Below are positions 3,801 through 61,643 of a stretch of 63,767 bases of DNA, piece by piece. Each line of letters starts with the position of its first letter. Positions within the stretch are counted from its first letter, which is position 1. The notes under the pieces are model-generated. The model did not search any database. It saw only the letters and a program-made list of their open reading frames with translations, and had not been told where the DNA came from. A program made the position numbers and the translations under genes. Origin of the DNA: a virus (lineage: Duplodnaviria; Caudoviricetes); the IMG/VR virus record IMGVR_UViG_3300042475_001147, positions 1 to 63,767 of that record, one strand, 5' to 3'.

Positions 3801-5300
3801 ACCGAGTTCTTTAATTGCTACTCATTTGGCAATGGAGCGGAGAGTTACAAGGTCAGGGATTCTATTGTTGGTAAATACTTTACGCTCGGAAACAGGGTGA
3901 CAGTTACATCTTCTGAGGACTACAGAAGGATTGATCGCTTCGCTGATATCACATACAGTGGTGTTTACTACGACGAGACCAACGTAAACAGACTGAACGA
4001 ATTCAACCTTGGCTTGCAAAACTTCAAGCAATGCGAGGATTCATTTGGCCCCATTCAGAGAATGGACGCCCGTGAAACGGATGTGTTGGTATTGCAAGAG
4101 GACAAAATATCCTATGTGCTTGCAGGCAAGAACATTCTTTCTGACGCTGGCGTTGGTAGTTCTATCGCTGCCATCCCCGAAGTTCTTGGAACTCAGATAG
4201 CGCGCACCGAGAAGTACGGCATCAGTTTCAACCCCGAGAGTTATGTTCACTGGGGCTACAACAGATTCTTCACCGACGTTAAGCGCGGTGCGGTGATTCA
4301 GTTGTCGGGAAGTATGTACAGCCAAGACCAACTATCTGTGGTTTCAGAGATGGGCATGCGTACTTGGTTTAGAAGTACATTTATCGACTTCTTCGCTACT
4401 CAGAAACTTGGAGGATGGGACCCATACATGAACGAATATGTATTGGTTATCAACGACACTGAGATACCACAGCCCCCACAGTGCGTGTCTTGTGGTCTTC
4501 AGCAGACATTCACATTGAATGATGAGTCATTTCAATACTGCGTTGACCTCAGCCCATTCGTTGGTGATGTGAACATCGACTACACCGTAATCTCAATCAC
4601 CCCTGGCGATACCTTCGAGGTGTCGGCAGTGTACGATGGTACCACCTACACCACAGGCCCAGAGTCTACAAGCGGCACATTGACTTTCAGCAAGGACATC
4701 AACAACGTAAACCTAGCAGACATTACTGTTACCGCCAATGGCACAGTGGTATTGGCTGTATTGGTTAACTGTCCAAACCAAGAGTTGATGACCGTGATTC
4801 AAGTTGTTGTCACCAACGATTATGATGCGGGTCAAACCAACCACGTACAATTCAGATACACTAGCGGAACGTACACATCACCAATTCAAACCACATTCGT
4901 GGAGTTTGTTTCGGGTAGCGCTACTCCATTGGTGTCATTGTATAGCGCAATCACAGGACCAAAAGGATTTGGTTCTATCCCTGTGGATGGTAGCGATGTG
5001 TACTTGATCTCTAACAAGATTGTACCCGATACATTTGACTTCGACGCAGCAAACGACTCGTTTAAGTACTACACATCGAACACGCTATATAACAACAATA
5101 CCGCAGACATTACCACATTGCTCGGATTGGCCAGCACCGCTACGCCAATCACACAATCAGGGAATGTATTCCAATCATTTTTCACGTCGGGCGTGTTGCA
5201 AGATTATCTATATTTGATCTGGGATTACAGATCATCTACAGCAACTGAGTTGTGTTACTCGAACATAGACATACAGGATGTTTGTTGTGGATGCTTATAA
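885..5300 (+). CDS. Tail stabilisation/muzzle-like protein (crAss-type), N-terminal portion, 1471 aa
   Basis: N-terminal NFIAGKMNKSLDERLVPDGQYIDAMN, NRLMYGNY, and C-terminal NRLNEFN/FGPIQ/YGISFNPES/LGGWDPY motifs recalled from crAss-like stabilisation proteins; position in the tail module. Confidence 0.7.
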   Translation: MANITRNFIAGKMNKSLDERLVPDGQYIDAMNIRMGSTENAEIGVIENTKGNESLTALTYINGTALSNDAKCIGAFEDGEAETIYWFVHDPNFPIGATGKLDMIVSFNVLTGILTYHVVSIDDGGGVNTTLNFNPLYLINAINLVKSGTVSENLLFFTDDYNPPRSINTTRTYTVPIGNTDQFSAESILVIKQPPIAAPTLQMLSTSGQENYMETRFLCFAYRYRYADNEYSATSQFSEPAFVPNAFQFSVDSYLNEGMVNAANAVNITYNSGDELVIGIDLLFKEAGTNIIKVIEKLDKATLGIVNNASVTYQFSNSKIFTILPESEILRLYDNVPLQAKAQTLMGNRLMYGNYVEGYDLVDENANPVMFEYTIALVTEEIGTTEVTDSTASGNYNINSAQTIADSVVEIDLDGVNLVSGASLSLDITFTHATFTGSTPFPSETTDNISLNFTFFLNQDYSSVYALASSTEFQDAIGTAANIQTVANACTGITFTDQFNCAIPQNLDSLTKFQSGISAVNQPIGIITTTSSTVIGLQLPAMRFVDNVTTPTFNVYEYYEINFAEAVYQEIATPSSLHSNRDYEIGIVYMDEFNRSSTALVSQNNTVHVPCGFSKNKNSIQVTIPPAQLPPFWATRYKFVIKPSNTFYETIYTYIFFTDPESNNVYFLLDGENAKKIEQGDRLIVKADSSGPTQNCTYATVLEKDSKAADFITITSQLDPNVEISVPAGVYMKINPNSFNIINDELAVIAPGTITVFTDIVGVYPVLQYPMNRLDSVTGDYVDYTVPAGSRITMSLKFERKGVRDGQGRCETRTYILDKTFVASANYDNMMDWWNGDNIGNAIQDGYAYAGGGNCTPELEYIPTMSTTGSPSQYSLCTNYIQWYRDISNNALILTMIGTERCSGAGQKEDRRSSITANIQVFRAENLIIFETEPTEALPDVFFENNLSLPITGGFHIGNVQNQTASQPALVDTEFFNCYSFGNGAESYKVRDSIVGKYFTLGNRVTVTSSEDYRRIDRFADITYSGVYYDETNVNRLNEFNLGLQNFKQCEDSFGPIQRMDARETDVLVLQEDKISYVLAGKNILSDAGVGSSIAAIPEVLGTQIARTEKYGISFNPESYVHWGYNRFFTDVKRGAVIQLSGSMYSQDQLSVVSEMGMRTWFRSTFIDFFATQKLGGWDPYMNEYVLVINDTEIPQPPQCVSCGLQQTFTLNDESFQYCVDLSPFVGDVNIDYTVISITPGDTFEVSAVYDGTTYTTGPESTSGTLTFSKDINNVNLADITVTANGTVVLAVLVNCPNQELMTVIQVVVTNDYDAGQTNHVQFRYTSGTYTSPIQTTFVEFVSGSATPLVSLYSAITGPKGFGSIPVDGSDVYLISNKIVPDTFDFDAANDSFKYYTSNTLYNNNTADITTLLGLASTATPITQSGNVFQSFFTSGVLQDYLYLIWDYRSSTATELCYSNIDIQDVCCGCL

Positions 5301-10613: not shown

Positions 10614-13600
10614 ATGGATGAATTGCAAAAGTTATACGATGTTCTCATAAGAGATGGATACTATACTAAATCATTTGATGATTTCAAAGTTCAGTTTCAA
10701 GATCCGGGATATCAAGACAAAGTATATGGCGTAGTAGAGAGAGATGGTTTATTTACAAAAGGTAAAGACGCTTTCATTCAGAAATACACGTCACAGGCAG
10801 AGCCTATTGCTGTAAAAAAAAAAGAACCGTCAGAACTTCCGTGGAACCAAAAGCCAGCAGAGCCAAAGGAAGAACCTGCACTCCCGTTTTTGGAATCCAA
10901 GCCTTCGGGTATTTCTTTGGGATCTCAAAGAGTTCCTGAGACTGCCCCTATGTTTGAGGCTCCTCCAATGAGGACCCCCGAAGAAGCACAAGCAATAGTA
11001 GAAGCACCGCAAACCGCCGACTCCGAACAGGGTTGGCTACTTAACACCGTGTCCGCATTGGATCGAGGATTCGCCAAGAACTTAATCGGGAATCCCGTCA
11101 AGGGTATGGGTACATTGCTCGAAGGAGCAACAGCAAAAGTATTTGGTGGGACAGGAAAGGGTCCAATCAGTGATGCATTAATAAGTTTTGGTAATTACTA
11201 CAACAATGCCATTGACGAACTCACTCCTCAAGATGAAGACTTTAAAAACAGTTTGACCGATCAATTTGGCCAAGCATTTGGTCAAGTTGCGTCATTAATA
11301 ATGACAGGCGGTATTGCCGGGGCAGGTAAAGAAGGCGCTGCAATTGCTGCTGCCGCCCCAACAGGAGTCGCAGGCACCGTTGGCGCTGCTGGTAAGCAGT
11401 TGGCTTCTACATTGGTAAGCCCTACCTCTGTGAGTGCGGGTCTATCTATGGGTCAAGCAGAGTTTGACAGAGCCAAAGAATTGGGAGCCACGGACGATCA
11501 AGCATTCGAAGCATTTTACAAGAACGCTGCGGTTGGTTCTGTGCTAGAGCAGATACCTGTTATGCAATTCCTAAAGCGATTCAATCAATCAACAGCCGGC
11601 GGTGTAACGAATTACATCAAAGCCAAGGGTGTTGCAGGATTGACAGGTGGCTTTGAAGAGATGACAACTGAAGTCCTTCAACAACTTTATGCCAACAAAA
11701 CTGCTCAAGAAATATACAACATCAACCAAGAACTGCTCGAAGGGGTAGGTGAATCGGGTGGTGTAGGTTTTGGTGTGGGTTTCATCTTGAACGCGATGGG
11801 TGCTAGGGTGAAGAAGTTAAAGAAGGATGGCAAGCCACAAGAAGCACAGTTAATTGAGAATCAAATTGCAGAATTTGAAAACAAACCCGCTACTCCACCA
11901 CCAAGTTACAGTATCAATGGGATAAATATAGATTCGCCCAATGTTATCAATGATATGATTGAGACAATGGATGTTGAGAATCTAAGTAAAGCCAACATTG
12001 AAATCACCAATGACCCCGTTCTTAGTGCAAAGTTGCAAGACAAGATGGTTACATCTTCGATCAAGGAAGAGGTTCGAGAAGCCAATCCCAATTTGGACGA
12101 GGAGACATTGGATCAAATCACCGCATTAGAAAAGGAACGAAAGAAGTTTGAAGGCAAGAAGACACAGTCAGCCAAGGACAAACTTGCTTCTATCAATTCA
12201 CAAATAAAAACACTACAAGAAAATGCCGTTCAAAAGCCAAGCACAGAGGAGGGCGTGTTACGCCCAGAAGAATCCCAAGTGGGATTGCAAGAAGTGGGAG
12301 AAGGAGACGCCAAAGAGCAAGCCCCTGCCCAAGAAGTTGTCCAAGAAGAAGTAGTCACTCCCGACGAGGACTTGCAAGCGGCACTAGATCGGATTGAAAT
12401 CCCCGAGGATACGGAAGCAGTACAGCCTATTGTAACGCCTAGAAATAAGGCTGAAAGAAAGGAGGCTGCTAGAAGGGGGGATATGGTTTATCATAATTTT
12501 GATGGTTCTATAATTGAATCTACTCGTGAGCAATATGATAATGCACTTAAAGAAATCGCAGAAACAGGGGCTATTGAAAATGTATTTAATTATGGCAAGG
12601 AAGTATCATCAAGACAGGCTCCTAACGAATTAGAAATCCAATATGAGCCTAGCCTTCTCTATATGAAAAAAGAGGATGCCGATAGCGATTTAAAACGAAG
12701 AACTAAAGTCGAGGAAATTACCGATAAGGCTGTGGAAGCATTGCCGGGGGTTGACGATGAGTTGAAGACAATCAATGAATCAATCGGCCGTGTCAAGGAA
12801 GAAGTAGACAGGAACAAAGACGAGCAAACTTTGCAAGACCTTAGTGACAAAGTCGCTAGAGCCAAGAAGAATATCGCTACGGCAGATGACACAGATGTTG
12901 CCATCGAGGATTTCAAGCAGGCTGAAAAGGAAAAGACAGACTTTGAAGAAGCGGTAAGCAAAAAGAAAAACTTCAACAAAGTGGAGGCCCTTATCGCTGA
13001 CGAGATATACCAAAAGGATAGAGGCAACTACGAATATCAAGAACTGTTTGACCAAGACCCACGCCTTGCTGCAATACAAAGCGCCAAGGAAACGATTGAA
13101 CTTGGCAAAGGAGATTTCCTTGACGAAGAGGGAGTTGCTAGATACGAGAACGACATTAAAATACTTGAAGAGGATATCGCCAAGTTCCCCGTAAAGCAAG
13201 CAGAGGCTGCACCAAAAGTGTCTTCAAAGACACCAAAGGCAAAGAGCGTCCCCATTCCTGTGGCTATCCCCAAGCCTACTCCAAAACCCGCACCTGCACC
13301 TGCACCTGCGCCATCTGCTGTGGTATCACAGCCCACAACGAAAGCGATAGGGCCAGAGGCATTACGCCAAGAGTATATCGATAAGATTGCGGAGGTAAGA
13401 CTCAACAAGGATAAGTCAAGAACGCCAAAGCAGATTGATGAAAGGGTTAAAGAGTTGCAAGATGAGTACAAGAAACTCAAGGCTGAGATGACTGCTCCCA
13501 AGCCAAAGGCAGAAGCCAAGCCTGCACCAAAAAAAGCAGCGCCGGCACCAAAGGTAGAAGCGAAGGTAGAGCCAGTGGTATCGAAGAAAGACCAAGCAGA

Positions 13601-16600
13601 AATTAAAAGACTCGAGGATGAGATAGATTACTATCAAGGTCAGATTGACAATGCGATTGAAGAACTAGGAAATACTAATTATAACTACGAAGAAATCGAA
13701 ACAGAAGTCGAAAAGGAAAAAGAGAAATTAGAAGAAAAGAAAATGTCAAAGCAGAAGAGAGAAGACGCAGAAGACGAACTCGATGCTAGACTTGAAGAGG
13801 CCGAAACTGATCGTGACTCCTATCTAGAGCAATACAATAATGAATTAAAAGAGGCACAGAGGGAAAAGAAGAAAGCCGAAAGAAAACTTGCCAAGTTGCA
13901 AGCCAAGCAAGTTGAGACTAAGGCAGAGCCTAGGTCAGTAGTAGAGGAAGACGAGCCATCATACGATGACATCAAAGACCTCGATGTATCTGATCCCACT
14001 TTGCTAGAAAGAGTAGAAGACTTCCTTGATGACATGGATGATAGCCTGTCTGAGTTTGGACGAGGCAACTTGTCTAGTGGTATGGCTATACCATTGGCAA
14101 AGGCCATTATCAAATCCCTAAAGGTATTGGTAAGGGCAGGTATTACATTGCAAGAAGCCATCAAGCGTGTAGCCTCCGATAACAATCTCGAAGCCAAAGA
14201 TGTAGTCAACATGATCAAGGACCTTGACAAGGCCCAATCACCCATGGCCAAGTTGAAATCACAAGTTCAAAGCGAGATCCAAGCAGCGAAAGAAGGCGCA
14301 CGTAGTGTTAGTGATGCAATCAAGGCAATCACCGACTACTTCAACTTCAACGCAGAGCGTGGTAATTTGACACGTAGAGACCTTAGAAGAGTAATTAATG
14401 CCATCGCTAAGATCAAGGATCAAAAGTCCTTAGACAAGGCCGCAGATAAGATATTCGCCATCATTGACAAGGCTAAGACTGATGTCATCGAAGTGAGTTC
14501 GTCCAAAGCATTGGTTTCTCAAATCAAATTGGAGGCGCGTGCCGCCCTTGGTGCCAAGAAAGACATCAACCAAAAGCGTAAAGACTTGTCCGATGCTATC
14601 AAGGCGATGGAAACAACAGGTAAGATATCGGCAGCCAAGGCTAAAGCCATCCTTAATAAGATTGGCAAGGTAAACCTTAACAACCCTGCATCAGTAGATG
14701 TGTTCTTGGATTACGTAGAGAATGTATTTGAGGACGCGGCATACGAGGTTGAATTGGCTGGTATCAATGCTAAACTTGCCAAGGCAAGAAACAATGTTAA
14801 CAAAAAGATCGGTACCGCAAAGACATTGACCACGGTATTGAACAGGTTGTTTAGTATAAAGCCATCATTGATTCCTGTAGAGATACTTGATGACTATAAA
14901 GACATAGTCGATATGTTTGGAGATAGCGCAGCGGTGCTTAAACTCGAAGAAATTACCGAGGTTACACAAAAAGTGCAAGATATACTTGATCAGATTGATG
15001 ATCAATTATCCTTAGTACCAGCATTGGCCACTAAGTTATTTAACTATGACAAGGCTATACTCAATGAGGATGGCGCATTGAATTACTCTGCCACCATCGA
15101 AAAAATGAAGGAAGACAAAGTAATAGATGATGCCGAATACGAATTGATGAGAAAGTACAAGTCTTACATCATGCCAAAAACATCTACAATACCAAAAACT
15201 AAAGCCGAACTGGCAGAAGAAAAGAAGGTATTGGTCAAGCAAGTCAAAGAAGCAGCCAGCGAGGCTACTATTTCGCCATTGGCTAGCGACGATGAGAAAA
15301 AGATGGCGTCAAGCGTTATCAAGTTGTCCAAGACAAACGCTGTTGAGTCGCTTGACAACAGACAACTCGAGAACCTTCTCAAGATATTTGAGAACTTTAA
15401 GAACGGGTACTTCCCCGCCTATGCTAATGGTATCAACAACGACTTGATCGCAGCCGATAACGCCGGATTCTTGAGCAAGGCTATAGCCAAAGCAAAGATG
15501 CCAACCCTAGCCAAGTTAAAGTTGAGAATAACCAACAAAAGAAAAGCCTTGTTCCAAAGAGTCAAGTCTACGCCATTGTTCAACATCGATGAACTATTTG
15601 GGGACTTCAAAGCCAAGGATATATTCAACTCTTTGTTCAATTCATTGGCTCAGAACCAACAGCGTTACGCACTTGAGTTAGAGAAAATCAATCAACGATT
15701 AGAAGATGCACTGAATAAGATTGCCAAGTCATACGGTAACAACGAGAACAAAATCGTTGAGTCCAAGATGAAGATGGCGATCTATCGCATACAGCGAGAG
15801 TTCCAGGCTAACCCCGGCAACCCTAGTGTAAACCCAGCCATTGAGTACATCAACGAAACCATAAAAGCCATCAAGGGTGGTAATACAAATTATGGTGATG
15901 AGGATGCAAAAATGCTCGAGAAGATTGCAAAAGATTACAGCGATGGCAATGGTGGTATAGACGCCAAGAAACTTAAGAACTCTTTCAACACAGCAGAGCA
16001 AGAGGCGATAGATCTTTTTGATAAGATTAACAAAGAGGTAGAAGACAAGGCCATATTCACCGGCGATGTTATTCGTGGCGATAAAGTTAAGTTGCTCAAT
16101 GAGTACAACCACATCAGCGTGTTGCCAACAAAGGGGCAAGAAGCAGATCCAATTGCCGATGTGATGAGCAAGTTCGATTCTAAGAATGTGGTGTCAACCA
16201 AGGCAAAGTCATTAATTGAAAGAACCCCCGAAGCCAAGGCTATCAACTTCGATATATTCTCAACCGTTCAGCGAGGTGCAAAGTTTGTATTGATGGATTA
16301 CTATCTGACAAACCCAGTGAGGGTAGCAAGAAAGACTATCAACACCACGCGCAAGATGATGGAAGAGAATGGCACGCTTACGGAAGACGCGAACACAATC
16401 ATCGATGTAATCAATGACGCATTAGAGTTAGCATTAAAGTCATCACTTGATCAAGCAGCGTTCAATGATTCGTTCACAGAGCAGGTTATCCAAGAGATGG
16501 CCAAGACTGGATATAGAGTGATGCTTGGTGGTATTCCTAGGGCCACTACGGAATTAACTTCCAACATGGCATACGTTGCCATGGTTAATCCTAAAGAGTG

Positions 16601-18074
16601 GTTTACAGGCTTGAAGATGATGAAGATAATCCGTGGTGGTAAAGCGGTTGACATCATGGAAGCGGTGGGCAGTAAGGTTATTAGTCGTGTATACGGATCT
16701 GATCCACTTAAGGGTAGGATGATTGACCCTAGCGTTCTAAGCAAGCGCACCGGTATAGGAGAGAGTAAGTTGAAAAAAGAAACTCTCAATGCAATTGCTA
16801 TCATACACAACAATAGTACGAAGAGATTAAAAAACTTTGCAGAGTTAATTGCTGATGGATTGATCTCCACGCCTGATAAAATCATGATGAGACCTTTGTG
16901 GTTCGGTTCGTTCGACAAAGCATTCCAAGATTTCGCAGGGAAGAAGCCGGACTACGATAAGATTGAAGCCAACGATGCTGACTACATGATTCAAAACAAG
17001 GAGGCTCTCGAGGCAGCCGGTCGTGTAGCGGATGAGAAGGTAACTATGGCAGGTAACGTAGAAAACCCATACATGAATGCGCTCAAGGCTTACATTGCAT
17101 CTGACCAAAAAGGAGTAACCAAGATGGCAAAAGTATTCGACAACTTCATGTTGAAGTTTCAGATTGGTGAATACTTGACGGCACGGAGGGGGCTTTATGC
17201 ATTGATGGGGAATGGCAATATATCAAAAGCGCAAGGAGCAAAGATCATGGCGGCTGTCGTAACTCGTATGACCGTATACACAGTAATGAGTAAGATGGCG
17301 TCGGAGTTCTTCTATGGTCTATTCTTGGATGACGAGGATGAGGATGATGACAAGTCATTCGCTCAGAAGTTGGGGCAAGGATTGGCATCTACCTTCACGA
17401 GTTTATTCCTAGGTAGAGACTTTGGCAACATAGCAAGATCTATGATAAACTATGGCGTAGAGAAAGTAAACGAAAAGTATCTTGACTTCCTTCGCGATGG
17501 CGATTACGATCCATACGAGGATGCCATTCAGTACTCATTCATACCACCCGAGAAGAAAGGCAAATCGCTCGAAGCATTCGACATAATAGCCAACATGTCC
17601 GGGCCTTACTCTCCAGCAGTTAAGTCTTTGGATTTCGTTACAAAGAAACTTACGGAAGAACCAAAGAAAGAAGCAGCGGCAATTGAAAGACAGGGGCAAG
17701 AGAAGACTGTACGTGTCCCTCTCGAAATCCTTGGTAACCTTGGTTACGTGCCATTTTATAAGGACATCAGAGCCATGGTGAACAAGTGGATCTATAGTGA
17801 ACTTGATAAGGAGTTGGACAAGCAAGGTCAGAAAGAGGAAGAGTTCAAGCCAATGGGATTGAACAAGACAGACCTTCAGCGTTACTACCCAGAGATTTAC
17901 GAGCAGTACTATGGCGAGGGAACAGAGGATGCGGCTAGAAGAAAACTCGAGCAAGAAAGAGAAGTACTTGAGCGCCGGATGAAAGACGACTACTACAACT
18001 ACGTTCCTAAACAAGAAATGAAAAAAAGTTCTAAAAGAAAAAGCGGTGGTATAGAACGAAGGATGAGGAAGTAA
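10614..18074 (+). CDS. Giant putative ejection/internal virion protein, 2486 aa
   Basis: Last gene of the virion operon; Gly/Ala hydrophobic segment near the N-terminus, long K/E coiled coils, PAPAP linker. Confidence 0.65.
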   Translation: MDELQKLYDVLIRDGYYTKSFDDFKVQFQDPGYQDKVYGVVERDGLFTKGKDAFIQKYTSQAEPIAVKKKEPSELPWNQKPAEPKEEPALPFLESKPSGISLGSQRVPETAPMFEAPPMRTPEEAQAIVEAPQTADSEQGWLLNTVSALDRGFAKNLIGNPVKGMGTLLEGATAKVFGGTGKGPISDALISFGNYYNNAIDELTPQDEDFKNSLTDQFGQAFGQVASLIMTGGIAGAGKEGAAIAAAAPTGVAGTVGAAGKQLASTLVSPTSVSAGLSMGQAEFDRAKELGATDDQAFEAFYKNAAVGSVLEQIPVMQFLKRFNQSTAGGVTNYIKAKGVAGLTGGFEEMTTEVLQQLYANKTAQEIYNINQELLEGVGESGGVGFGVGFILNAMGARVKKLKKDGKPQEAQLIENQIAEFENKPATPPPSYSINGINIDSPNVINDMIETMDVENLSKANIEITNDPVLSAKLQDKMVTSSIKEEVREANPNLDEETLDQITALEKERKKFEGKKTQSAKDKLASINSQIKTLQENAVQKPSTEEGVLRPEESQVGLQEVGEGDAKEQAPAQEVVQEEVVTPDEDLQAALDRIEIPEDTEAVQPIVTPRNKAERKEAARRGDMVYHNFDGSIIESTREQYDNALKEIAETGAIENVFNYGKEVSSRQAPNELEIQYEPSLLYMKKEDADSDLKRRTKVEEITDKAVEALPGVDDELKTINESIGRVKEEVDRNKDEQTLQDLSDKVARAKKNIATADDTDVAIEDFKQAEKEKTDFEEAVSKKKNFNKVEALIADEIYQKDRGNYEYQELFDQDPRLAAIQSAKETIELGKGDFLDEEGVARYENDIKILEEDIAKFPVKQAEAAPKVSSKTPKAKSVPIPVAIPKPTPKPAPAPAPAPSAVVSQPTTKAIGPEALRQEYIDKIAEVRLNKDKSRTPKQIDERVKELQDEYKKLKAEMTAPKPKAEAKPAPKKAAPAPKVEAKVEPVVSKKDQAEIKRLEDEIDYYQGQIDNAIEELGNTNYNYEEIETEVEKEKEKLEEKKMSKQKREDAEDELDARLEEAETDRDSYLEQYNNELKEAQREKKKAERKLAKLQAKQVETKAEPRSVVEEDEPSYDDIKDLDVSDPTLLERVEDFLDDMDDSLSEFGRGNLSSGMAIPLAKAIIKSLKVLVRAGITLQEAIKRVASDNNLEAKDVVNMIKDLDKAQSPMAKLKSQVQSEIQAAKEGARSVSDAIKAITDYFNFNAERGNLTRRDLRRVINAIAKIKDQKSLDKAADKIFAIIDKAKTDVIEVSSSKALVSQIKLEARAALGAKKDINQKRKDLSDAIKAMETTGKISAAKAKAILNKIGKVNLNNPASVDVFLDYVENVFEDAAYEVELAGINAKLAKARNNVNKKIGTAKTLTTVLNRLFSIKPSLIPVEILDDYKDIVDMFGDSAAVLKLEEITEVTQKVQDILDQIDDQLSLVPALATKLFNYDKAILNEDGALNYSATIEKMKEDKVIDDAEYELMRKYKSYIMPKTSTIPKTKAELAEEKKVLVKQVKEAASEATISPLASDDEKKMASSVIKLSKTNAVESLDNRQLENLLKIFENFKNGYFPAYANGINNDLIAADNAGFLSKAIAKAKMPTLAKLKLRITNKRKALFQRVKSTPLFNIDELFGDFKAKDIFNSLFNSLAQNQQRYALELEKINQRLEDALNKIAKSYGNNENKIVESKMKMAIYRIQREFQANPGNPSVNPAIEYINETIKAIKGGNTNYGDEDAKMLEKIAKDYSDGNGGIDAKKLKNSFNTAEQEAIDLFDKINKEVEDKAIFTGDVIRGDKVKLLNEYNHISVLPTKGQEADPIADVMSKFDSKNVVSTKAKSLIERTPEAKAINFDIFSTVQRGAKFVLMDYYLTNPVRVARKTINTTRKMMEENGTLTEDANTIIDVINDALELALKSSLDQAAFNDSFTEQVIQEMAKTGYRVMLGGIPRATTELTSNMAYVAMVNPKEWFTGLKMMKIIRGGKAVDIMEAVGSKVISRVYGSDPLKGRMIDPSVLSKRTGIGESKLKKETLNAIAIIHNNSTKRLKNFAELIADGLISTPDKIMMRPLWFGSFDKAFQDFAGKKPDYDKIEANDADYMIQNKEALEAAGRVADEKVTMAGNVENPYMNALKAYIASDQKGVTKMAKVFDNFMLKFQIGEYLTARRGLYALMGNGNISKAQGAKIMAAVVTRMTVYTVMSKMASEFFYGLFLDDEDEDDDKSFAQKLGQGLASTFTSLFLGRDFGNIARSMINYGVEKVNEKYLDFLRDGDYDPYEDAIQYSFIPPEKKGKSLEAFDIIANMSGPYSPAVKSLDFVTKKLTEEPKKEAAAIERQGQEKTVRVPLEILGNLGYVPFYKDIRAMVNKWIYSELDKELDKQGQKEEEFKPMGLNKTDLQRYYPEIYEQYYGEGTEDAARRKLEQEREVLERRMKDDYYNYVPKQEMKKSSKRKSGGIERRMRK
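12223..12354 (+). CDS. Nested +1-frame small basic protein MPFKSQAQRR...KKK, 43 aa
   Basis: ATG 12223 after A-rich CAAATAAAAACACTACAAGAAA, stop TAG 12352-12354; resembles free-standing MPFKS-type small phage proteins (from recall). Confidence 0.6.
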   Translation: MPFKSQAQRRACYAQKNPKWDCKKWEKETPKSKPLPKKLSKKK

Positions 18075-56531: not shown

Positions 56532-58967
56532 ATGGAAGATATTAAAATTAACATATCGGCTACAGGATTTCCTGATCAGTTCGCCTCTGATCAGGAAAAA
56601 GCGTCTGCCGAATACGGGTTGCAAATAGGCGGCGCAATTTCTTACGAATGGTTCCGCAAAGACGGAAACCAATGTAGATACTATGGTCAGTGGAGAGACT
56701 TCCACAGGCTCAGACTTTACGCTCGTGGTGAGCAGTCTGTGCAGAAGTACAAGAACGAACTCGCTATCGATGGCGACTTGTCTTACTTGAATTTGGACTG
56801 GACACCAGTACCGGTTATCCCAAAGTTTGTGGATATTGTGGTGAACGGGATGTCAGACAGATTATTCAAGGTAAAGGCTTACTCGCAGGACGCATTGTCT
56901 CAGGCAAAGCGTAGCAAATACCAAGACATTATCGAATCTCAGATGGTATCAAAGGATATCCTAGAGATTGTTCAACAGCGTACAGGCATTAGCGCATTCA
57001 CGGTTAACCCCGAGGATCTACCATCTAACGATGAGGAGTTGGCATTGTACATGCAGTTGAAATACAAGCCAGCGATTGAGATTGCAGAAGAGGAAGCCAT
57101 CAATACCATCCTTGACGAGAACAAGTATCTCGACTTGAGAAAGCGTGTCGACTACGACATGACTGTTATTGGTATCGGTGTAACCAAGCACGAGTTTCTC
57201 CCCGGCGCAGGTGTTCAAGTGTCTTACGTAGACCCCGCTAACGTGGTTTACAGTTACACTGAAGACCCATACTTCAAAGATTGCTTCTATTGGGGCGAGA
57301 TTAAATCATTACCAATTATTGAGTTACTAAAGATAGACCCCACGCTGACCAATGCTGACTTGGAAGAAATTGCCAAGAGCAGTCAGAACTGGTACAACTA
57401 TTACAACGTGGCTCAGTTCTATCAGAACACCCTATTCTATAGGGACACCACCACTCTCCTTTACTTTAACTATAAAACCACCAAGAAGATTGTTTATAAG
57501 AAGAAGTATCTAGAGGGTGGGGGCGTCCGCTACATTGAGAAAGATGACACCTTCAATCCACCAATGGATATGATGGAGGATGGCAAGTTCGAGAGAGTAG
57601 AGAAGACCATCGATGTATGGTATGAGGGCGTTATGGTCATGGGTACCAACTACTTATTGAAGTGGGAGATGTCCAAGAACATGGTACGTCCCAAGTCTTC
57701 TGTACAGCATGCATTGCCAAACTATGTGGCATGTGCGCCTCGTATGTACAAAGGAACTATTGAGTCTTTGGTTCGCAGAATGATTCCATTCGCTGACTTG
57801 ATTCAATTGACTCACTTGAAGTTGCAACAAGTAATTGCTCGTACAGTACCTGATGGTGTATTCATTGATGCCGATGGTCTGAACGAAGTTGATTTAGGAA
57901 CAGGCAATGCCTACAACCCGGAGGATGCATTGAGATTGTACTTCCAAACGGGTAGTGTTATCGGTCGTAGTTATACCCAAGAGGGTGACTTCAACAACGC
58001 ACGAGTGCCTATCACCCAATTGACATCCAACTCTGGCGCCGCCAAGACGCAGATGCTGATCGCCAACTACAACCACTACATGGATATGTTGCGCACAGTG
58101 ACCGGCTTGAACGAGGCAAGAGATGCATCCACCCCTGACCCCAACTCATTGGTTGGTCTTCAGAAGTTGGCCGCATTGAATTCAAACACAGCAACTCGCC
58201 ACATCTTGGATGCTGGCTTATATATATTCAGATCAATCGCAGAAGCATTGACCTACCGCGTTGCGGACATCCTGCAATACGCAGACTTCAAGGACGACTT
58301 CATCAGTCGTATCGGAAAGTACAACGTCTCTATCTTGGAGGAAATCAAGGAGTTATACATCTATGACTTTGGTATCTTCTTGGAGATCGCTCCTGACGAA
58401 GAGCAGCGCGCGCAGTTGGAAGCCAACATTCAGGTGGCTTTGTCAAAGGGTGACATCAATCTTGAGGATGCAATTGATATCCGCGAGATCAAGAACCTTA
58501 AGATGGCAAACCAATTGCTGAAGGTTAAGCGTATGAAGTTGCAAGAGCATAGGGACAAAATGGAAATGATGAAGCAACAGATGGCTGCTCAACAGAACAT
58601 GGAACTCCAGCAGATGGCTTCTCAATCTGCCATGATGAAGATCGAGGCAGAAGGCCAATCTAAGATGCGTGTCAAGCAGGCTGAGGTGGCCTTTGAGATT
58701 GAGCGCATGAAGGCAGAAGCCGGGCTGAAGCAACAGTTGATGGGCGAGGAGTTCAAGTACAACATGGCGATTGCCGGATTGAACAACCAAACATTGACTA
58801 GCAGAGAGATGTCCAAGGAAGAAGCCAAGGCAAAGCGGATTAGTCAACAGAACTCGGAGCAATCCAAGTTGATCAATCAGCGCAAGAACGACCTACCGCC
58901 AATCAACTTCGAGTCAAATGAAGACTCGCTTGATGGCTTTGATTTGTCGGTGTTCGAGCCTCGCTAA
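56532..58967 (+). CDS. Portal protein
   Basis: 811 aa after TerL; LNLDWTPVP.IPKFVDIVVNG and TGLNEARD motifs; Gln/Met-rich coiled C-terminus. Confidence 0.8.
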   Translation: MEDIKINISATGFPDQFASDQEKASAEYGLQIGGAISYEWFRKDGNQCRYYGQWRDFHRLRLYARGEQSVQKYKNELAIDGDLSYLNLDWTPVPVIPKFVDIVVNGMSDRLFKVKAYSQDALSQAKRSKYQDIIESQMVSKDILEIVQQRTGISAFTVNPEDLPSNDEELALYMQLKYKPAIEIAEEEAINTILDENKYLDLRKRVDYDMTVIGIGVTKHEFLPGAGVQVSYVDPANVVYSYTEDPYFKDCFYWGEIKSLPIIELLKIDPTLTNADLEEIAKSSQNWYNYYNVAQFYQNTLFYRDTTTLLYFNYKTTKKIVYKKKYLEGGGVRYIEKDDTFNPPMDMMEDGKFERVEKTIDVWYEGVMVMGTNYLLKWEMSKNMVRPKSSVQHALPNYVACAPRMYKGTIESLVRRMIPFADLIQLTHLKLQQVIARTVPDGVFIDADGLNEVDLGTGNAYNPEDALRLYFQTGSVIGRSYTQEGDFNNARVPITQLTSNSGAAKTQMLIANYNHYMDMLRTVTGLNEARDASTPDPNSLVGLQKLAALNSNTATRHILDAGLYIFRSIAEALTYRVADILQYADFKDDFISRIGKYNVSILEEIKELYIYDFGIFLEIAPDEEQRAQLEANIQVALSKGDINLEDAIDIREIKNLKMANQLLKVKRMKLQEHRDKMEMMKQQMAAQQNMELQQMASQSAMMKIEAEGQSKMRVKQAEVAFEIERMKAEAGLKQQLMGEEFKYNMAIAGLNNQTLTSREMSKEEAKAKRISQQNSEQSKLINQRKNDLPPINFESNEDSLDGFDLSVFEPR

Positions 58968-59016: not shown

Positions 59017-60156
59017 ATGGAAATCAAAGTAAGAGAAGTAAGGCCAATCGAAAGTAAAGGCGTACAAGAGTTGGAAGAAGAATTGCTGAACAAGCATGAG
59101 GAACAGATACAGGTGCAAGCCGTATCGATGGACCATCAGAGAACTCCCGCGCCGGCTCCTGAGCCAACACCCGAGTTAGAGCCTGAGTTGCAGCCAGAGT
59201 CGCAGCCAGAGCCACAACTACAGAGTGCTGAGTTACAGGAGGAAGACGTTCTTTCATATATTAGCAAGCGCTACAATAAACAAATCAACTCATTTGATGA
59301 GTTGGTCTCTGAGAGATCCGACGAGCAATTGCCCGAGGACGTATCAGCATACTTGAAGTACCGCAAAGAGACAGGCCGTGGGTTTGAAGACTTCCTCAAG
59401 TTGAAAGAAGACTTCGACACAATGGACCCTGACAACATCTTACGCAGTTACTTTAAGTCAACACAGGTTGGTTTGGACGACGAAGATATCGATGTCATGA
59501 TGGAAGACTACTCATACAATGAGGACTTGGACGATGACTCGACTATCAAGAAAGCCAAACTGGCCAAGAAAAAAATGATTGCAGAAGCCAAGCAATACTT
59601 CACTACTCAGAAAGAGAAATACAAAATGCCCCTTGAGTCAAGAACGGCAGACGTTTCTCCCGAAGAAAAAGAGGAGTTGCAGGCATACAAGCAATATATA
59701 TCGCAGGCGAAAACTATGGAGCAAGAAGCCGAGCGTAAGCGTGATTGGTTTTCAAAGAAAACCGACGAGGTATTTAACAATGAGTTCAAAGGTTTTGAGT
59801 TCAAGTTGAATGACCAAGTTGTACGTTTCGCACCGGGGGATGCTGCCGAATTGAAGAAAGCCCAATTGACACCAACAAACTTTATCAATAAGTACTTGGA
59901 TGAGAGCGGGATGATCAAGGATGCAGCGGGTTATCATAGAGCGTTGGCGGTGGCAATGAACCCCGAAAGGTTTGCCAAGTTCTTTTATGAGCAAGGCATG
60001 TCAGCAGCGACAGAGGATGTCAATCGCAAAATTAAGAACATTAATATGAGCGAAAGACAGGCCCCTCAGTCAACGGTGAAAGACGGGTTCCAGGTTAAAT
60101 CGGTGAACCCTGATTCCGGCAAAGGTTTGAGAATCCGAAGCATGAAAAAAATCTAA
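59017..60156 (+). CDS. Putative capsid scaffolding protein
   Basis: Acidic, between portal and MCP; TAAATTTG at 58988-58995. Confidence 0.65.
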   Translation: MEIKVREVRPIESKGVQELEEELLNKHEEQIQVQAVSMDHQRTPAPAPEPTPELEPELQPESQPEPQLQSAELQEEDVLSYISKRYNKQINSFDELVSERSDEQLPEDVSAYLKYRKETGRGFEDFLKLKEDFDTMDPDNILRSYFKSTQVGLDDEDIDVMMEDYSYNEDLDDDSTIKKAKLAKKKMIAEAKQYFTTQKEKYKMPLESRTADVSPEEKEELQAYKQYISQAKTMEQEAERKRDWFSKKTDEVFNNEFKGFEFKLNDQVVRFAPGDAAELKKAQLTPTNFINKYLDESGMIKDAAGYHRALAVAMNPERFAKFFYEQGMSAATEDVNRKIKNINMSERQAPQSTVKDGFQVKSVNPDSGKGLRIRSMKKI

Positions 60157-60182: not shown

Positions 60183-61643
60183 ATGGCAGTTTTATCTACC
60201 CCGACCTATCAGTTGCAGCCGAGTGCGCAACAGGTCCCCCTATCTACTAACTACATTACCGACTTCAACTTCTTGAACCAGTATCTTCCTGATACTTACG
60301 AGAAAGAATTTGAGCGTTACGGTAATCGTACTATCGCTTCTTTCTTGCGTATGGTTGGCGCTGAAATGCCATCCAACTCAGACATGATCAAATGGGCTGA
60401 ACAAGGCCGTTTGCACATCAAGTACATCAACTGTACTACCACCGTGTTGTCTAGCGCAGATACTGCGACTTTCACCATCAACGACGTGTTGGTTCCTAAC
60501 CGTGCTTCTATTGGTTTGACTGCCGGTAGCATCGCATTGCGTGTAGGCCAAACTGTAGTTATCACTCCTAACGTTGCTGGTCCTACCCAGAACAAAGGTA
60601 TCATCACTGCCGTTAACACTAGTGCTGGCACTATCGATGTTGCTTTCTACGAAGCAGCCGGTATGACCAACGCATCTGCTGGTAACACTTTCACAATCTT
60701 CATCTACGGTTCTGAATTCAAAAAAGGAACTAACGGAATGCAAGGTTCTTTGGAAGCAGAAGATGAAATCTTCGACAACAGTCCTATCATCATCAAGGAT
60801 AAGTACGCGGTATCTGGTTCTGACATGGCTCAGATCGGATGGATCGAGGTTACTACCGAGAATGGTGCATCTGGATTCTTGTGGTACTTGAAGTCTGAGC
60901 ATGAGACTCGTTTGCGTTTCGAAGACTATTTGGAAACCGCTATGATCGAAGCCGTTCCTGCCGTAAGTGGTTCAGGTGCTGTTGCTGCTGGTTACAAAGG
61001 TTCTGAAGGTGTGTTCTACGTAGTAAACGACCGTGGAAACGTATGGGGCGGTGGTAACCCAACCACTTTGGCCGACTTCGATTCTATCGTTTCTCGTTTG
61101 GACAAGCAAGGTTCTATCGAAGAGAACGTAATCTTCGTTAACCGTGACTTCAGTTTCGACATCGACGACATGTTGGCTACCTTGAATGGTTTCAACGGTG
61201 GTACTGCCGCAAACGGTGCGTCTTTCGGTTTGTTCGACAACGATATCAACATGGCCTTGAACTTGGGCTTCAGTGGTTTCCGTCGTGGTTATGACTTCTA
61301 CAAGTCTGACTGGAAATACTTGAACGATCCTACCATGCGTGGTGGTTTGACTGCATCTACTACTGGTGCTAGTACTGCCAACGTAATCACTGGTTTGTTG
61401 GTACCTGCTGGTTCTACCACAGTATACGACCAAGTGTTGGGTAAGAACGCCAAGCGTCCTTTCTTGCACGTTCGTTACCGCGCAACTGCCACTGAGGATC
61501 GTCGTTACAAGACTTGGATCACAGGTTCTGCCGGTGGTGCTGCTACTAGCGACTTGGATGCTATGGAAGTTAACTTCTTGTCTGAGCGTTGTGTATGTAC
61601 CTTGGGTGCTAATAACTTCGTATTGTTCCGTTACGGTGCCTAA
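60183..61643 (+). CDS. Major capsid protein
   Basis: 486 aa, strongly biased codon usage, W.EQGRLH and LGF.GFRRGYDF motifs, terminator downstream. Confidence 0.85.
   Translation: MAVLSTPTYQLQPSAQQVPLSTNYITDFNFLNQYLPDTYEKEFERYGNRTIASFLRMVGAEMPSNSDMIKWAEQGRLHIKYINCTTTVLSSADTATFTINDVLVPNRASIGLTAGSIALRVGQTVVITPNVAGPTQNKGIITAVNTSAGTIDVAFYEAAGMTNASAGNTFTIFIYGSEFKKGTNGMQGSLEAEDEIFDNSPIIIKDKYAVSGSDMAQIGWIEVTTENGASGFLWYLKSEHETRLRFEDYLETAMIEAVPAVSGSGAVAAGYKGSEGVFYVVNDRGNVWGGGNPTTLADFDSIVSRLDKQGSIEENVIFVNRDFSFDIDDMLATLNGFNGGTAANGASFGLFDNDINMALNLGFSGFRRGYDFYKSDWKYLNDPTMRGGLTASTTGASTANVITGLLVPAGSTTVYDQVLGKNAKRPFLHVRYRATATEDRRYKTWITGSAGGAATSDLDAMEVNFLSERCVCTLGANNFVLFRYGA

What the first reader, a model, noticed from the sequence alone, without database searches (positions are those of the whole stretch)
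12223..12354. Hidden gene overprinted in the +1 frame of the 2486-aa virion protein
The main frame reads ENAVQKPSTEEGVLRPEESQVGLQEVGEGDAKEQAP, a linker-like acidic stretch. The +1 frame reads MPFKSQAQRRACYAQKNPKWDCKKWEKETPKSKPLPKKLSKKK*. It has an A-rich Bacteroidota-type initiation context and, from recall, matches small basic phage proteins found as stand-alone genes (MPFKS.AQR...W...TPK...LP.K). One 132-bp stretch would thus encode an acidic linker and a very basic peptide. It is either a live dual-coding gene or a captured gene now read out of frame. It is below the ORF-track cutoff.
Basis: partly seen in the sequence, partly recalled or inferred. Interest (0 to 1): 0.72.

Follow-up and report, generated by a model that had tools for sequence, protein, structure and literature searches.

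The report
Hidden small gene inside giant phage gene
A 43-residue, very basic protein gene is hidden in the +1 reading frame of this phage's giant virion gene; it is kept intact in many related phages and is this phage's only copy of a widespread small phage protein family whose function is unknown.

Summary
The ORF is real: 12223-12354 (+), ATG start, 43 aa, in the +1 frame of the 2486-aa gene 10614-18074. Its length alone is unremarkable, since it sits in a 48-codon stop-free run and the gene's longest is 98.

Conservation makes the case.
- In a 1401-nt blastn query, only this stretch matched other phages.
- I picked 80 relatives by the giant protein's C-terminal region, without using the peptide. 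Of these, 64 carry an intact ATG-started homologue nested +1. Two more have it outside the host frame; one of these follows the giant gene's stop. Ten lack it and 4 cannot be judged.
- Substitutions fall on the peptide's third codon positions.
- dN/dS is 0.13-0.14 in the peptide frame, against 0.15 for stand-alone copies. In the host frame it is 1.3-1.6.
- Host synonymous variation reaches its gene-wide minimum here.

Homologues also occur in three other settings:
- as stand-alone genes, several right after the giant gene's stop in syntenic relatives;
- nested in an unrelated scaffold-position gene;
- as an N-terminal module on diverse enzymes.

The family has 4,440 cluster representatives.

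I read it as a live overprinted gene. Translation itself is not shown, and the function is unknown. My guess is a virion or DNA-associated adaptor.

The parts
12223..12354 (+). Nested +1 ORF with ATG start and TAG stop. It encodes a 43-aa basic protein (MPFKSQAQRR...KKK) of the 'MPFKS' small-protein family.
   Evidence: HMM E = 7e-25; the only copy in the window; the only copy in the complete 63,767-nt record. Conservation and selection.
12198..12222 (+). A-rich, G-poor leader without a Shine-Dalgarno motif, in front of the nested ATG. The host frame reads it as ...NSQIKTLQE. I infer it is the internal initiation region.
   Evidence: One search gives the sequence. Across nested copies the 20 nt upstream are 58-60% A, against 37.5% A in host genes overall. 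SD-like 4-mers occur in 0 of 60 Cys-type copies and 2 of 56 RRWMY-type copies; control positions give 12% and 20%.
10614..18074 (+). Host gene for a giant 2486-aa virion-module protein. Residues 1643-2451 match phrog_32588 (unknown function). It is the last + strand gene of the structural block.
   Evidence: neighbouring virion structural PHROGs; homology to other giant hosts.
12222..12356 (+). Host-frame reading of the same DNA: an acidic linker, about residues 537-581 of the giant protein (NAVQKPSTEEGVLRPEESQVGLQEVGEGDAKEQAPAQEVVQEEVV).
   Evidence: pI 4.05. In this stretch the host frame is no better conserved than the unused third frame: 0.414 vs 0.433 in the unbiased set and 0.609 vs 0.621 in the Cys-type set.

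Best explanation
Window 12223-12354 is a live protein-coding gene lying wholly inside the giant virion gene, one base out of frame (+1). I infer that ribosomes start independently at its own ATG, helped by an A-rich leader without a Shine-Dalgarno motif, and make a 43-aa, strongly basic protein. The model shows two short helices followed by a Lys-rich tail.

The small gene is the older and more constrained partner. It belongs to a very large family of phage proteins that start with MPFKS. In other phages the family occurs as stand-alone genes, often placed directly after the giant gene's stop codon. It also occurs as the N-terminal module of larger proteins.

The giant protein merely reads the same DNA in the only other stop-free frame, which gives a poorly constrained acidic linker. 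Each phage examined carries one copy, either nested or stand-alone, so here the nested copy supplies the function.

What is shown: the ORF, its homology, its retention, and purifying selection in its own frame. What is inferred: that it is translated, and what it does. My guess for the function, at roughly one chance in three, is a virion-internal or DNA-associated adaptor in which the conserved N-terminal module docks and the basic tail binds nucleic acid.
For: 1. DNA island. A blastn of window 11600-13000 against 50,697 phage records matched in 69 records. The matches covered only query 603-754, which is window 12202-12353. Identity was 83% to MW202828 and 78-80% to 68 Flavobacterium elemo phages. 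Both kinds of record keep an intact +1 ORF of 43 and 42 aa. At the match, each record annotates only the giant CDS.

2. Unbiased retention. I picked 80 loci by the host's C-terminal region; 156 of 201 pattern hits were confirmed and the best 80 kept. Their fates:
- 64 have an ATG-started homologue of 37-68 aa nested +1 in the giant ORF.
- 2 have it outside the host frame.
- 4 run off the contig.
- 10 have none.
Host identity to the window in that region is only 24-50% for 77 of the 80.

3. Which frame is selected. In the unbiased set of 56 unique sequences, pairwise differences fall 0.322 / 0.250 / 0.428 on peptide codon positions 1 / 2 / 3. Position 2 is the host's wobble base. Amino-acid identity is 0.615 in the peptide frame, 0.414 in the host frame and 0.433 in the unused frame. 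NG86 dN/dS is 0.143 and 0.126 in the peptide frame of nested copies, against 0.152 for stand-alone copies. In the host frame it is 1.29 and 1.63.

4. Host synonymous variation among the window and three close relatives has a median of 0.44 over 160 windows. Its minimum of 0.035 lies on the overlap.

5. The host protein does not force the ORF. I redrew synonymous codons with the host protein held fixed. The ATG and an open +1 frame were kept in a mean of 8.9% of draws over 55 hosts.

6. It is a real protein family.
- 4,440 representatives at E <= 0.001 and 479 at E <= 1e-10. In 136 of the best 150 the match starts at residue 1-3.
- Stand-alone copies sit directly after the giant gene's stop in L083, L088, L105, L111, L130, L152 and L194. 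In L088, L105, L111, L130 and L152 the downstream genes are 57-67% identical to the window's downstream genes.
- 5 of 5 such records hold exactly one copy.
- The window's complete record also holds exactly one copy.

7. The same cassette is nested +1 in an unrelated gene of about 386-409 aa lying between the portal gene and the phrog_13704 gene. That gene's homologue in the window (59017-60156) lacks the cassette.
Against: - No direct evidence of translation or of a protein product was obtained. No Ribo-seq, mass spectrometry or RNA ends were examined.
- The ORF's length is within what the +1 frame gives by chance.
- 10 of the 76 judgeable homologous giant genes have no detectable copy in the locus or anywhere in their records. 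Two of those records are estimated 94% and 99% complete. The gene is therefore dispensable, or unrecognisably diverged, in some relatives.
- The window's own peptide hits no Pfam or PHROG family at E <= 10. Only relatives hit phrog_1375, and weakly, at E about 1e-4.
- The first two locus sets were chosen by peptide similarity, so their statistics are biased towards peptide conservation. Only searches are free of that bias.
- Sequences are related by descent, so counts of loci are not independent events.
- The proposed function rests on context only.
Confidence: 0.86

Rival explanations
1. The conserved feature is a motif of the giant protein itself (AVQK..GVL....VGLQEV), and the +1 ORF is an untranslated by-product of that motif.
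For: The host-frame translation is recognisably similar between distant hosts. For example, blastp gives 44-59% identity over 45-70 residues between the window and many hosts. Any overlap must conserve both frames to some degree.
Against: - In this stretch the host frame is no better conserved than the unused third frame: 0.414 vs 0.433 and 0.609 vs 0.621.
- The host's wobble position is the least variable of the three.
- Host-frame dN/dS is 1.3-1.6.
- With the host protein fixed, the ATG and open frame survive only 8.9% of synonymous redraws.
- The same peptide exists where the host-like frame is closed by stops, as in stand-alone copies.
- 10 homologous giant proteins do without the segment.
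Confidence: 0.04
2. It is a captured small gene that is now dead: a relic read only in the host frame and not yet decayed.
For: - The cassette is compositionally distinct: 53% GC against 43.7% for the host gene.
- It occurs in unrelated host genes, as a mobile insert would.
- A decayed partial second copy exists in elemoA (L002 2613, 10 codons then a stop).
Against: - A relic would lose its ATG or gain stops. Instead, 64 of 76 judgeable relatives as distant as 24-50% host identity keep an ATG and an open frame.
- Peptide-frame dN/dS equals that of stand-alone copies.
- It is the only copy in a complete genome, while syntenic relatives carry one stand-alone copy instead.
Confidence: 0.05
3. The island is a nucleic-acid element (an RNA structure, an internal promoter or a packaging signal) rather than a coding sequence.
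For: Two perfect hairpins are visible in the window's copy: GGGCG..CGCCC and AATCCCA..TGGGATT. Conservation is sharp at the DNA level.
Against: - The fold of window 12195-12360 has z = -1.23, and 26 of 200 shuffles fold as well.
- The consensus structure of 18 copies is -2.28 kcal/mol, with 7 pairs and no compensatory change. The two hairpins are not part of it.
- Variation has a three-base period in phase with the peptide frame.
- The encoded peptide is homologous to thousands of called proteins.
Confidence: 0.02
4. The +1 frame is reached by programmed frameshifting from the giant gene. That would give a truncated giant protein with a basic tail rather than a separate 43-aa protein.
For: The frames are on the same strand and one base apart. 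An A10 run lies upstream in the same gene at 10814-10823, but it is 1.4 kb away.
Against: - Met1 is invariant in all 127 aligned members, and all 64 nested copies of the unbiased set start with ATG. A frameshift product would not need that.
- Stand-alone genes begin at that very codon.
- The peptide frame is closed by a stop 0-25 codons upstream of the ATG in most loci.
- I did not look for a slippery site at the junction.
Confidence: 0.02

Closest known systems
Embedded two-component spanin genes of phage lambda (Rz1 inside Rz). I recall the +1 frame from general knowledge. For PMC6139136 and PMC5295617 I saw only the search listing and abstracts.
   Same: A small phage gene lies wholly inside a larger gene on the same strand, out of frame, with its own start codon. 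The two genes sit in the same late operon.
   Different: - Rz1 is an outer-membrane lipoprotein with a signal sequence and lipobox. This peptide has neither on reading the sequence, and is a soluble-looking polycation.
- The host here is a giant virion protein, or in other phages a scaffold-position gene, not a lysis gene.
- The embedded gene here also exists widely as a free-standing gene and as a fused module.
Classical overprinted genes of small viruses (phiX174 B in A and E in D; reviewed in PMC8227390 and PMC3494269, of which I saw only the abstracts; the phiX174 examples are recalled).
   Same: One DNA stretch is read in two frames on one strand. The frame under weaker constraint shows an inflated dN/dS.
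   Different: In the usual case the embedded frame is the young, de novo gene. Here the embedded gene is the old, widespread one (4,440 cluster representatives). The host-frame reading, an acidic linker, is the derived and weakly constrained one.
phrog_1375 (phage protein family of unknown function) and Pfam DUF3008 (PF11450).
   Same: Small phage or bacterial proteins. Stand-alone and fused relatives hit phrog_1375 at E = 6e-5 to 2e-4. The Atlas puts a DUF3008-carrying viral cluster nearest among named clusters, at a score of 0.84, which is a lead only.
   Different: The window's peptide hits neither library at E <= 10. None of the 14 relatives scanned against Pfam hits PF11450. The function of both families is unknown, so membership would add no mechanism.
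Virion-packaged polyvalent or cargo proteins (Iyer et al. 2017, PMC5512222; I read passages and section 29) and the capsid-targeting sequences of T4 internal proteins (recalled).
   Same: The MPFKS module sits at the N-terminus of proteins carrying InPase, phage tail lysozyme, LigD_N, NUDIX, SET, GNAT, DnaJ and zincin-like peptidase domains. InPase, GNATs, zincin-like metallopeptidases and peptidoglycan-targeting enzymes are among the domain kinds that paper describes in phage polyvalent proteins predicted to be packaged and injected.
   Different: The paper has no occurrence of 'overlapping' or 'DUF3008'. The module hits none of the Pfam families, which to my recollection include that paper's LPD domains. 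A targeting role is my inference and is not tested.

Membership tests
MPFKS small-protein family (unnamed; defined here by alignments A1, A2 and A4) | N-terminal MPFKS, Q8, P18, W25, E28 and an L-P pair near residue 35, followed by a basic tail; the module starts at residue 1 | tested here: met
   In A4 (127 sequences) M1, P2, S5, Q8 and P18 are invariant, and F3, K4, W25, E28 and L35 are at least 90% conserved; the window's peptide has all of them. The HMM built from A1 scores the window ORF at E = 7e-25, but the peptide is itself one of A1's 18 rows. Independent of that, phmmer of the peptide found 17 small proteins at E <= 0.01, the best at 1e-16.
MPFKS small-protein family | Exists as independently called genes, so it is not merely an alternative frame of another gene | tested here: met
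   - Stand-alone copies with no long ORF in the other frames.
- Annotated CDSs in FlowerPower (gene 48) and in 023Pt_psg01.
- 4,440 representative proteins.
Embedded out-of-frame phage genes (Rz/Rz1 type architecture) | The whole ORF, with its own start codon, lies inside a larger ORF on the same strand in another frame | tested here: met
   12223-12354 lies inside 10614-18074 in the +1 frame with an ATG start. The same holds in 64 of 80 unbiased loci.
Embedded out-of-frame phage genes (Rz/Rz1 type architecture) | Both products are made and functional | not testable with these tools
   Only evolutionary signatures are available. No expression or protein data were examined.
o-spanin (Rz1-like) | Signal peptide with a lipobox Cys; outer-membrane lipoprotein | tested here: not met
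   The sequence has no hydrophobic N-terminal segment and no lipobox. It has 15 basic residues in 43. This is a reading of the sequence; no predictor was run.
Pfam DUF3008 (PF11450) | Match to the Pfam profile at or above the gathering score | tested here: not met
   There was no Pfam hit for the peptide at E <= 10, nor a PF11450 hit for the 14 relatives scanned at E <= 1 or 0.1. The only link is an Atlas feature score of 0.84 to a cluster in which 37% of members carry PF11450.
phrog_1375 | Match to the PHROG profile | tested here: inconclusive
   The window's peptide has no hit at E <= 10. Relatives L152, P0012, L115 and L127 hit at E = 6e-5 to 2e-4, and P0016 at 0.11.

The most novel reading that the evidence does not exclude
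The 130-nt MPFKS cassette is a self-contained, portable gene that can lodge inside unrelated structural genes. This works because exactly one of its alternative frames is stop-free, so the host reads through it as a harmless acidic linker. That is overprinting in reverse: an old small gene is swallowed by, or inserted into, larger genes.

The cassette then supplies the phage's only copy of a general N-terminal docking module. On this reading the module brings a basic tail, or in fused forms enzymatic cargo, into the virion for delivery with the DNA.
Probability: 0.3. Interest if true: 0.8.

Novelty: new variant of a known kind. Interest (0 to 1): 0.66.

Why it matters
- **Missed annotation.** Standard gene callers forbid nested genes. 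The 68 GenBank elemo phage records matched at the cassette list only 'structural protein' under the match, and the two records I opened (elemoA 7-9A and MW202828) annotate only the giant CDS there. The same hidden gene turned up in 64 of 80 metagenomic relatives. A conserved phage gene is therefore being missed systematically.
- **An unusual polarity of overlap.** The embedded gene is the ancient, constrained one, and the host's linker is the by-product. The same gene also alternates between nested, adjacent and fused positions across relatives. That makes a natural experiment on how overlaps arise and are kept.
- **A large family with no known function.** The family has 4,440 cluster representatives at 50% identity. 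Its fusion partners are domain kinds described in polyvalent proteins. It is a tractable target, because cultured elemo phages and their Flavobacterium host exist.
- **A warning for evolutionary analysis.** Measured over this stretch, the host frame shows dN/dS above 1 that has nothing to do with positive selection.

Tried and rejected
**Searches that found nothing useful**
- Pfam and PHROG scans of the peptide gave no hits at E <= 10.
- A PDB sequence search with profile A2 gave only a chance match, E = 0.74 to a protocadherin.
- A Foldseek search of the AF2 model against PDB gave 0 matches. Against BFVD it gave 8 weak matches, E 0.02-2.4, all uncharacterised viral proteins that are probably homologues. 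I did not run pdb_via_wide, because a 43-residue two-helix model would match unspecifically.
- tblastn of other subfamily peptides against cultured phages added only 7 Streptomyces phage records and two marine phages. The KQQV subtype found nothing.
- P0098, a 1633-aa protein fused to the module, shows no similarity to the window's giant protein (best E = 1.1). I therefore dropped the idea that the giant protein carries the module in frame elsewhere.

**RNA-structure reading.** Rejected.

**Complex prediction.** The peptide (A4) with the giant protein's conserved region (A3, 619 aa) returned 'no answer' (score 0.00 in two runs). This is not evidence either way.

**The 10 host-selected loci without the peptide**
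- A relaxed HMM search found nothing (best E = 0.54).
- Their whole records also have none.

**The giant-protein region in phages with the scaffold-nested copy.** It was found in 0 of 5 records. The small gene is therefore not tied to that giant family.

**Lysis-peptide idea.** I considered a cationic lysis peptide, a phage 'disruptin' (recalled), because one Streptomyces phage homologue sits beside a holin. I rate this low, because the module is fused to many unrelated enzymes. It was not tested.

**Literature.** I searched for 'MPFKS', 'DUF3008' (0 papers), overlapping or overprinting genes in phage, Rz1 and embedded genes, and the elemo phages. None of the listed titles or abstracts describes this nested gene. 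These were listings only, apart from PMC5512222. Supplements are closed, so that paper's domain tables were not seen.

**Not done.** The look-up of sequencing runs and read laying, because RNA coverage cannot separate the nested gene from its host.

**Rows dropped**
- My scripts located copies by the exact string MPFKS. 13 of the 80 loci lacked it and were not examined: L010, L025, L026, L034, L053, L055, L056, L059, L060, L064, L068, L078 and L081.
- 2 of the 80 loci (L158, L160) were missed for the same reason.
- L160's MPFKS ORF is unrelated and was excluded.
- L057, L086 and L108 were left out of the stand-alone set.

Full report
**The observation**

The window is a complete 63,767-nt virus record, estimated 100% complete by CheckV. 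It carries terminase, portal and several virion structural PHROGs.

The ORF at 12223-12354 (+) exists as described. It has an ATG start, 43 codons and a TAG stop, and it lies in the +1 frame of the 2486-aa ORF 10614-18074.

- The peptide has 13 K and 2 R against 3 acidic residues, pI 10.26.
- The host frame reads the same DNA as an acidic stretch of pI 4.05.

Length alone proves nothing. The host gene's +1 frame has stop-free runs of up to 98 codons, and this ORF sits in a 48-codon run.

**A DNA island**

I ran a blastn of 1401 nt around the ORF against 50,697 phage records. It matched in 69 records, and only at query 603-754, which is window 12202-12353. Sixty-eight were Flavobacterium 'elemo' phages at 78-80% identity, and one was the uncultured podovirus MW202828 at 83%.

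Both kinds of record keep an intact +1 ORF:

- MPFKSKQQMKACYAQNNPKWDCKKW... (43 aa) in MW202828.
- MPFKSKAQMKACYSQDNPKWDCKKW... (42 aa) in elemoA.

Each lies inside a giant CDS, 'reticulocyte binding/rhoptry protein' and 'structural protein' respectively. At the match, each record annotates nothing but that CDS.

**Homologues**

A word-indexed search found 17 small proteins of 41-64 aa. One group shares the window's Cys pair (ACYAQ.NPKWDCKKW). Another has the pattern MPFKSQAQRR[WYF]MY...WEKETPKG.LP.

Scans of IMG/VR with these alignments confirmed 216 of 600 and 472 of 599 pattern hits, and I kept the best 80 of each.

The scripts classed 149 MPFKS ORFs of at least 35 codons. They covered 163 sequences: L001-L162 plus a window segment. 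Thirteen loci of the first set and two of the second lacked the exact string and were not examined. The classes were:

| Class | Count |
|---|---|
| Nested in giant ORFs (at least 700 aa in view) | 60 |
| Nested in ORFs of about 380-410 aa | 60 |
| Not nested | 26 |
| ORFs over 90 codons that begin with MPFKS (two in-frame fusions; the third, L160, is unrelated) | 3 |

Every nested copy has the same phase, with the peptide at +1 of the host. In the listings the third frame is usually closed by a stop within or near the cassette. That would explain the constant phase.

**An unbiased sample**

Those loci were chosen by the peptide, so I also searched with the host alone. The query was the conserved C-terminal region of the giant protein, window 14487-16343 aligned with nine relatives (A3). 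This confirmed 156 of 201 hits, and I kept the best 80.

An HMM of the peptide then gave these results for the 80 loci:

| Result | Loci |
|---|---|
| ATG-started homologue of 37-68 aa, nested +1 inside the giant ORF | 64 |
| Copy outside the host frame (L194: 9 nt after the giant gene's stop; L199: host frame interrupted) | 2 |
| Host runs off the contig | 4 |
| No copy | 10 |

The ten remained negative under a relaxed search and over their whole records. Two of those records are 94% and 99% complete.

**Which frame is under selection**

In the unbiased set of 56 unique sequences:

- Pairwise differences fall 0.322 / 0.250 / 0.428 on peptide codon positions 1 / 2 / 3. These are host positions 2 / 3 / 1. 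The host's wobble base is therefore the most conserved, and the peptide's wobble base the most variable.
- Mean amino-acid identity is 0.615 in the peptide frame, 0.414 in the host frame and 0.433 in the unused frame.

The peptide-selected sets agree. NG86 dN/dS values are:

| Set | Peptide frame | Host frame |
|---|---|---|
| Nested Cys-type | 0.143 | 1.29 |
| Nested non-Cys | 0.126 | 1.63 |
| Stand-alone | 0.152 | not applicable |

Among the window and its three closest relatives (L163-L165), I measured the fraction of identical host residues encoded by different codons. Its median over 160 sliding windows is 0.44. Its minimum, 0.035, falls on the overlap.

I also held each host protein fixed and redrew synonymous codons. 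The ATG and the open frame survived in a mean of 8.9% of draws over 55 hosts.

**Rivals**

- *RNA structure.* The window's two neat hairpins are not conserved. The fold has z = -1.23. The consensus of 18 copies has 7 pairs at -2.28 kcal/mol with no compensatory change.
- *Frameshifting.* Met1 is invariant in 127 aligned members, and stand-alone genes start at that codon.
- *A dead relic.* This does not fit the retention and dN/dS figures above, nor the copy-number result below.

**Initiation**

There is no Shine-Dalgarno motif. SD-like 4-mers occur in 0 of 60 Cys-type nested copies, against 12% of control positions, and in 2 of 56 RRWMY-type copies, against 20%.

The 20 nt upstream are 58-60% A and 12-13% G. 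Host genes overall are 37.5% A and 21.8% G. This fits leader-composition-dependent initiation, as known for Bacteroidota from general knowledge. It is an inference here.

**One copy per genome, in alternative places**

In L083, L088, L105, L111, L130, L152 and L194 the small gene stands alone directly after the giant gene's stop codon. For example, the giant ORF ends at 3999 and the small gene's ATG is at 4001.

L088's giant protein is 37.6% identical to window residues 1292-2471. In L088, L105, L111, L130 and L152 the downstream genes are 57-67% identical to the window genes that lie beyond the giant gene.

Five of five such records contain exactly one copy, including one complete record with terminal repeats. 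The window also has exactly one copy, the nested one.

In the 60 'mid' loci the host is a different gene:

- It starts 106-196 nt upstream of the nested ATG.
- It follows an ORF of about 800 aa, which is phrog_6547 (portal) in L009, the one locus where I scanned it.
- In L009 it precedes a phrog_13704 structural gene. This is the usual scaffold position, which is an inference from gene order.

That host is 29-38% identical to window ORF 59017-60156, which has no nested copy. Five records of this kind have no homologue of the giant protein's A3 region. The same cassette therefore lives in two unrelated host genes.

**The family**

A full HMM search of 1.84 billion representatives found 4,440 proteins at E <= 0.001 and 479 at E <= 1e-10. 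In 136 of the best 150 the match begins at residue 1-3, and their lengths run from 45 to 575 aa.

Longer members carry the module in front of several kinds of domain:

- InPase
- Phage_lysozyme2
- LigD_N, and in one case also a DNA ligase domain
- DUF5661
- NUDIX
- SET
- DnaJ
- IF3_C
- a GNAT (the source's own name for the protein)
- an M48-like peptidase with glycine zippers

Only about 15 of the 120 listed long proteins have any precomputed Pfam domain.

Several of these domain kinds (InPase, GNATs, zincin-like metallopeptidases, peptidoglycan-targeting enzymes) are described in virion-packaged 'polyvalent proteins' (PMC5512222; passages and section 29 read). That paper mentions neither this module nor overlapping genes.

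GenBank annotates stand-alone members as hypothetical proteins in Streptomyces phage FlowerPower (gene 48, between a 'peptidase' and a holin) and in phage 023Pt_psg01.

AlphaFold2 with the 127-sequence alignment gives two helices, residues 6-15 and 22-28, and an extended tail, at mean pLDDT 75.9. No solved structure matches.

**Interpretation**

The small gene is the constrained and older partner. The giant protein's acidic linker is the alternative reading of that gene's DNA.

How the overlap arose is not settled. It may have been a fusion of flanking genes across the small gene, or an insertion of the cassette into linkers. Three observations favour a portable cassette:

- the cassette's higher GC, 53% against 43.7%;
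- its presence in two unrelated hosts;
- a decayed partial duplicate in elemoA.

The function is unknown. The evidence bearing on it is the late-operon position, the link to virion genes, the strict N-terminal placement, the basic tail and the cargo-like fusion partners. From these I guess a virion-internal or DNA-associated docking module, at about one chance in three.

**Limits**

- Translation is not shown.
- Loci are related by descent, so counts are not independent.
- Two of the three locus sets were chosen by the peptide.

Noticed in passing
window 10883-10940: A second stretch of the giant gene (host residues ...LPFLESKPSGISLGSQRVPE...) is nucleotide-identical in the window and L163-L165, while its flanks vary. 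Host synonymous variation drops to 0.085-0.15 there, against a median of 0.44. I saw no ATG-started alternative-frame ORF. It could be a recombined block, a cis element or a strongly constrained motif.
   Followed up: partly
window 10814-10823: An A10 homopolymer (reading VKKKE) inside the giant gene is conserved in all four close relatives. Runs of this length can cause transcriptional or ribosomal slippage. This was not examined.
   Followed up: no
L002 2613-2645 (elemoA 7-9A, MT497017): About 400 nt upstream of the intact nested gene there is a second, decayed copy of its start (MPFKSKKLMK, then a stop). The host frame repeats QEDAVQKQ there. This looks like a remnant of a duplicated cassette whose +1 frame was not maintained.
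   Followed up: no
window 59017-60156: This 379-aa gene lies between the portal gene (56532-58967) and the phrog_13704 structural gene (60183-61643). It is the homologue (29-38% identity) of the gene that hosts the nested MPFKS ORF in 60 other loci. In the window, its N-terminal Pro/Glu-rich linker carries no nested copy.
   Followed up: yes
L057 4001-4123: In this scaffold-position host the host frame has a stop 44 nt after the nested ATG, while the 41-aa peptide ORF is intact. L058 has the same peptide with an open host frame. This is either a sequencing error or a case where the small gene outlives its host frame.
   Followed up: no
L210 and L108 compared with L184 (same peptide sequence): The giant ORF opens only 16 codons before the nested ATG in L210/L108, but 681 codons before it in L184. 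The giant gene therefore seems to be split just upstream of the small gene in some contigs.
   Followed up: no
BFVD hits of model m1b490e18ba89: The best weak structural matches (E = 0.02-0.03, 39-48% identity) are uncharacterised proteins of Harvfovirus and Terrestrivirus. I recall these as giant viruses of eukaryotes. The module may therefore reach beyond tailed phages.
   Followed up: no
P0121 (128 aa, 591-nt contig) and P0040 (294 aa): In P0121 the MPFKS module is followed by an IF3 C-terminal domain (precomputed PF00707), apparently in place of the usual N-terminal part of IF3. P0040 has the module at the N-terminus and a second, diverged copy (…FQSKAQQRKMFA…EWAKDTPNIEKLPEKK…) at the C-terminus, flanking a DUF5661 domain.
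   Followed up: no
window 12249-12263 and 12271-12286: Two perfect hairpins (GGGCG-TGTTA-CGCCC and AATCCCA-AG-TGGGATT) lie within the nested ORF in the window's copy. They are not kept in relatives.
   Followed up: yes
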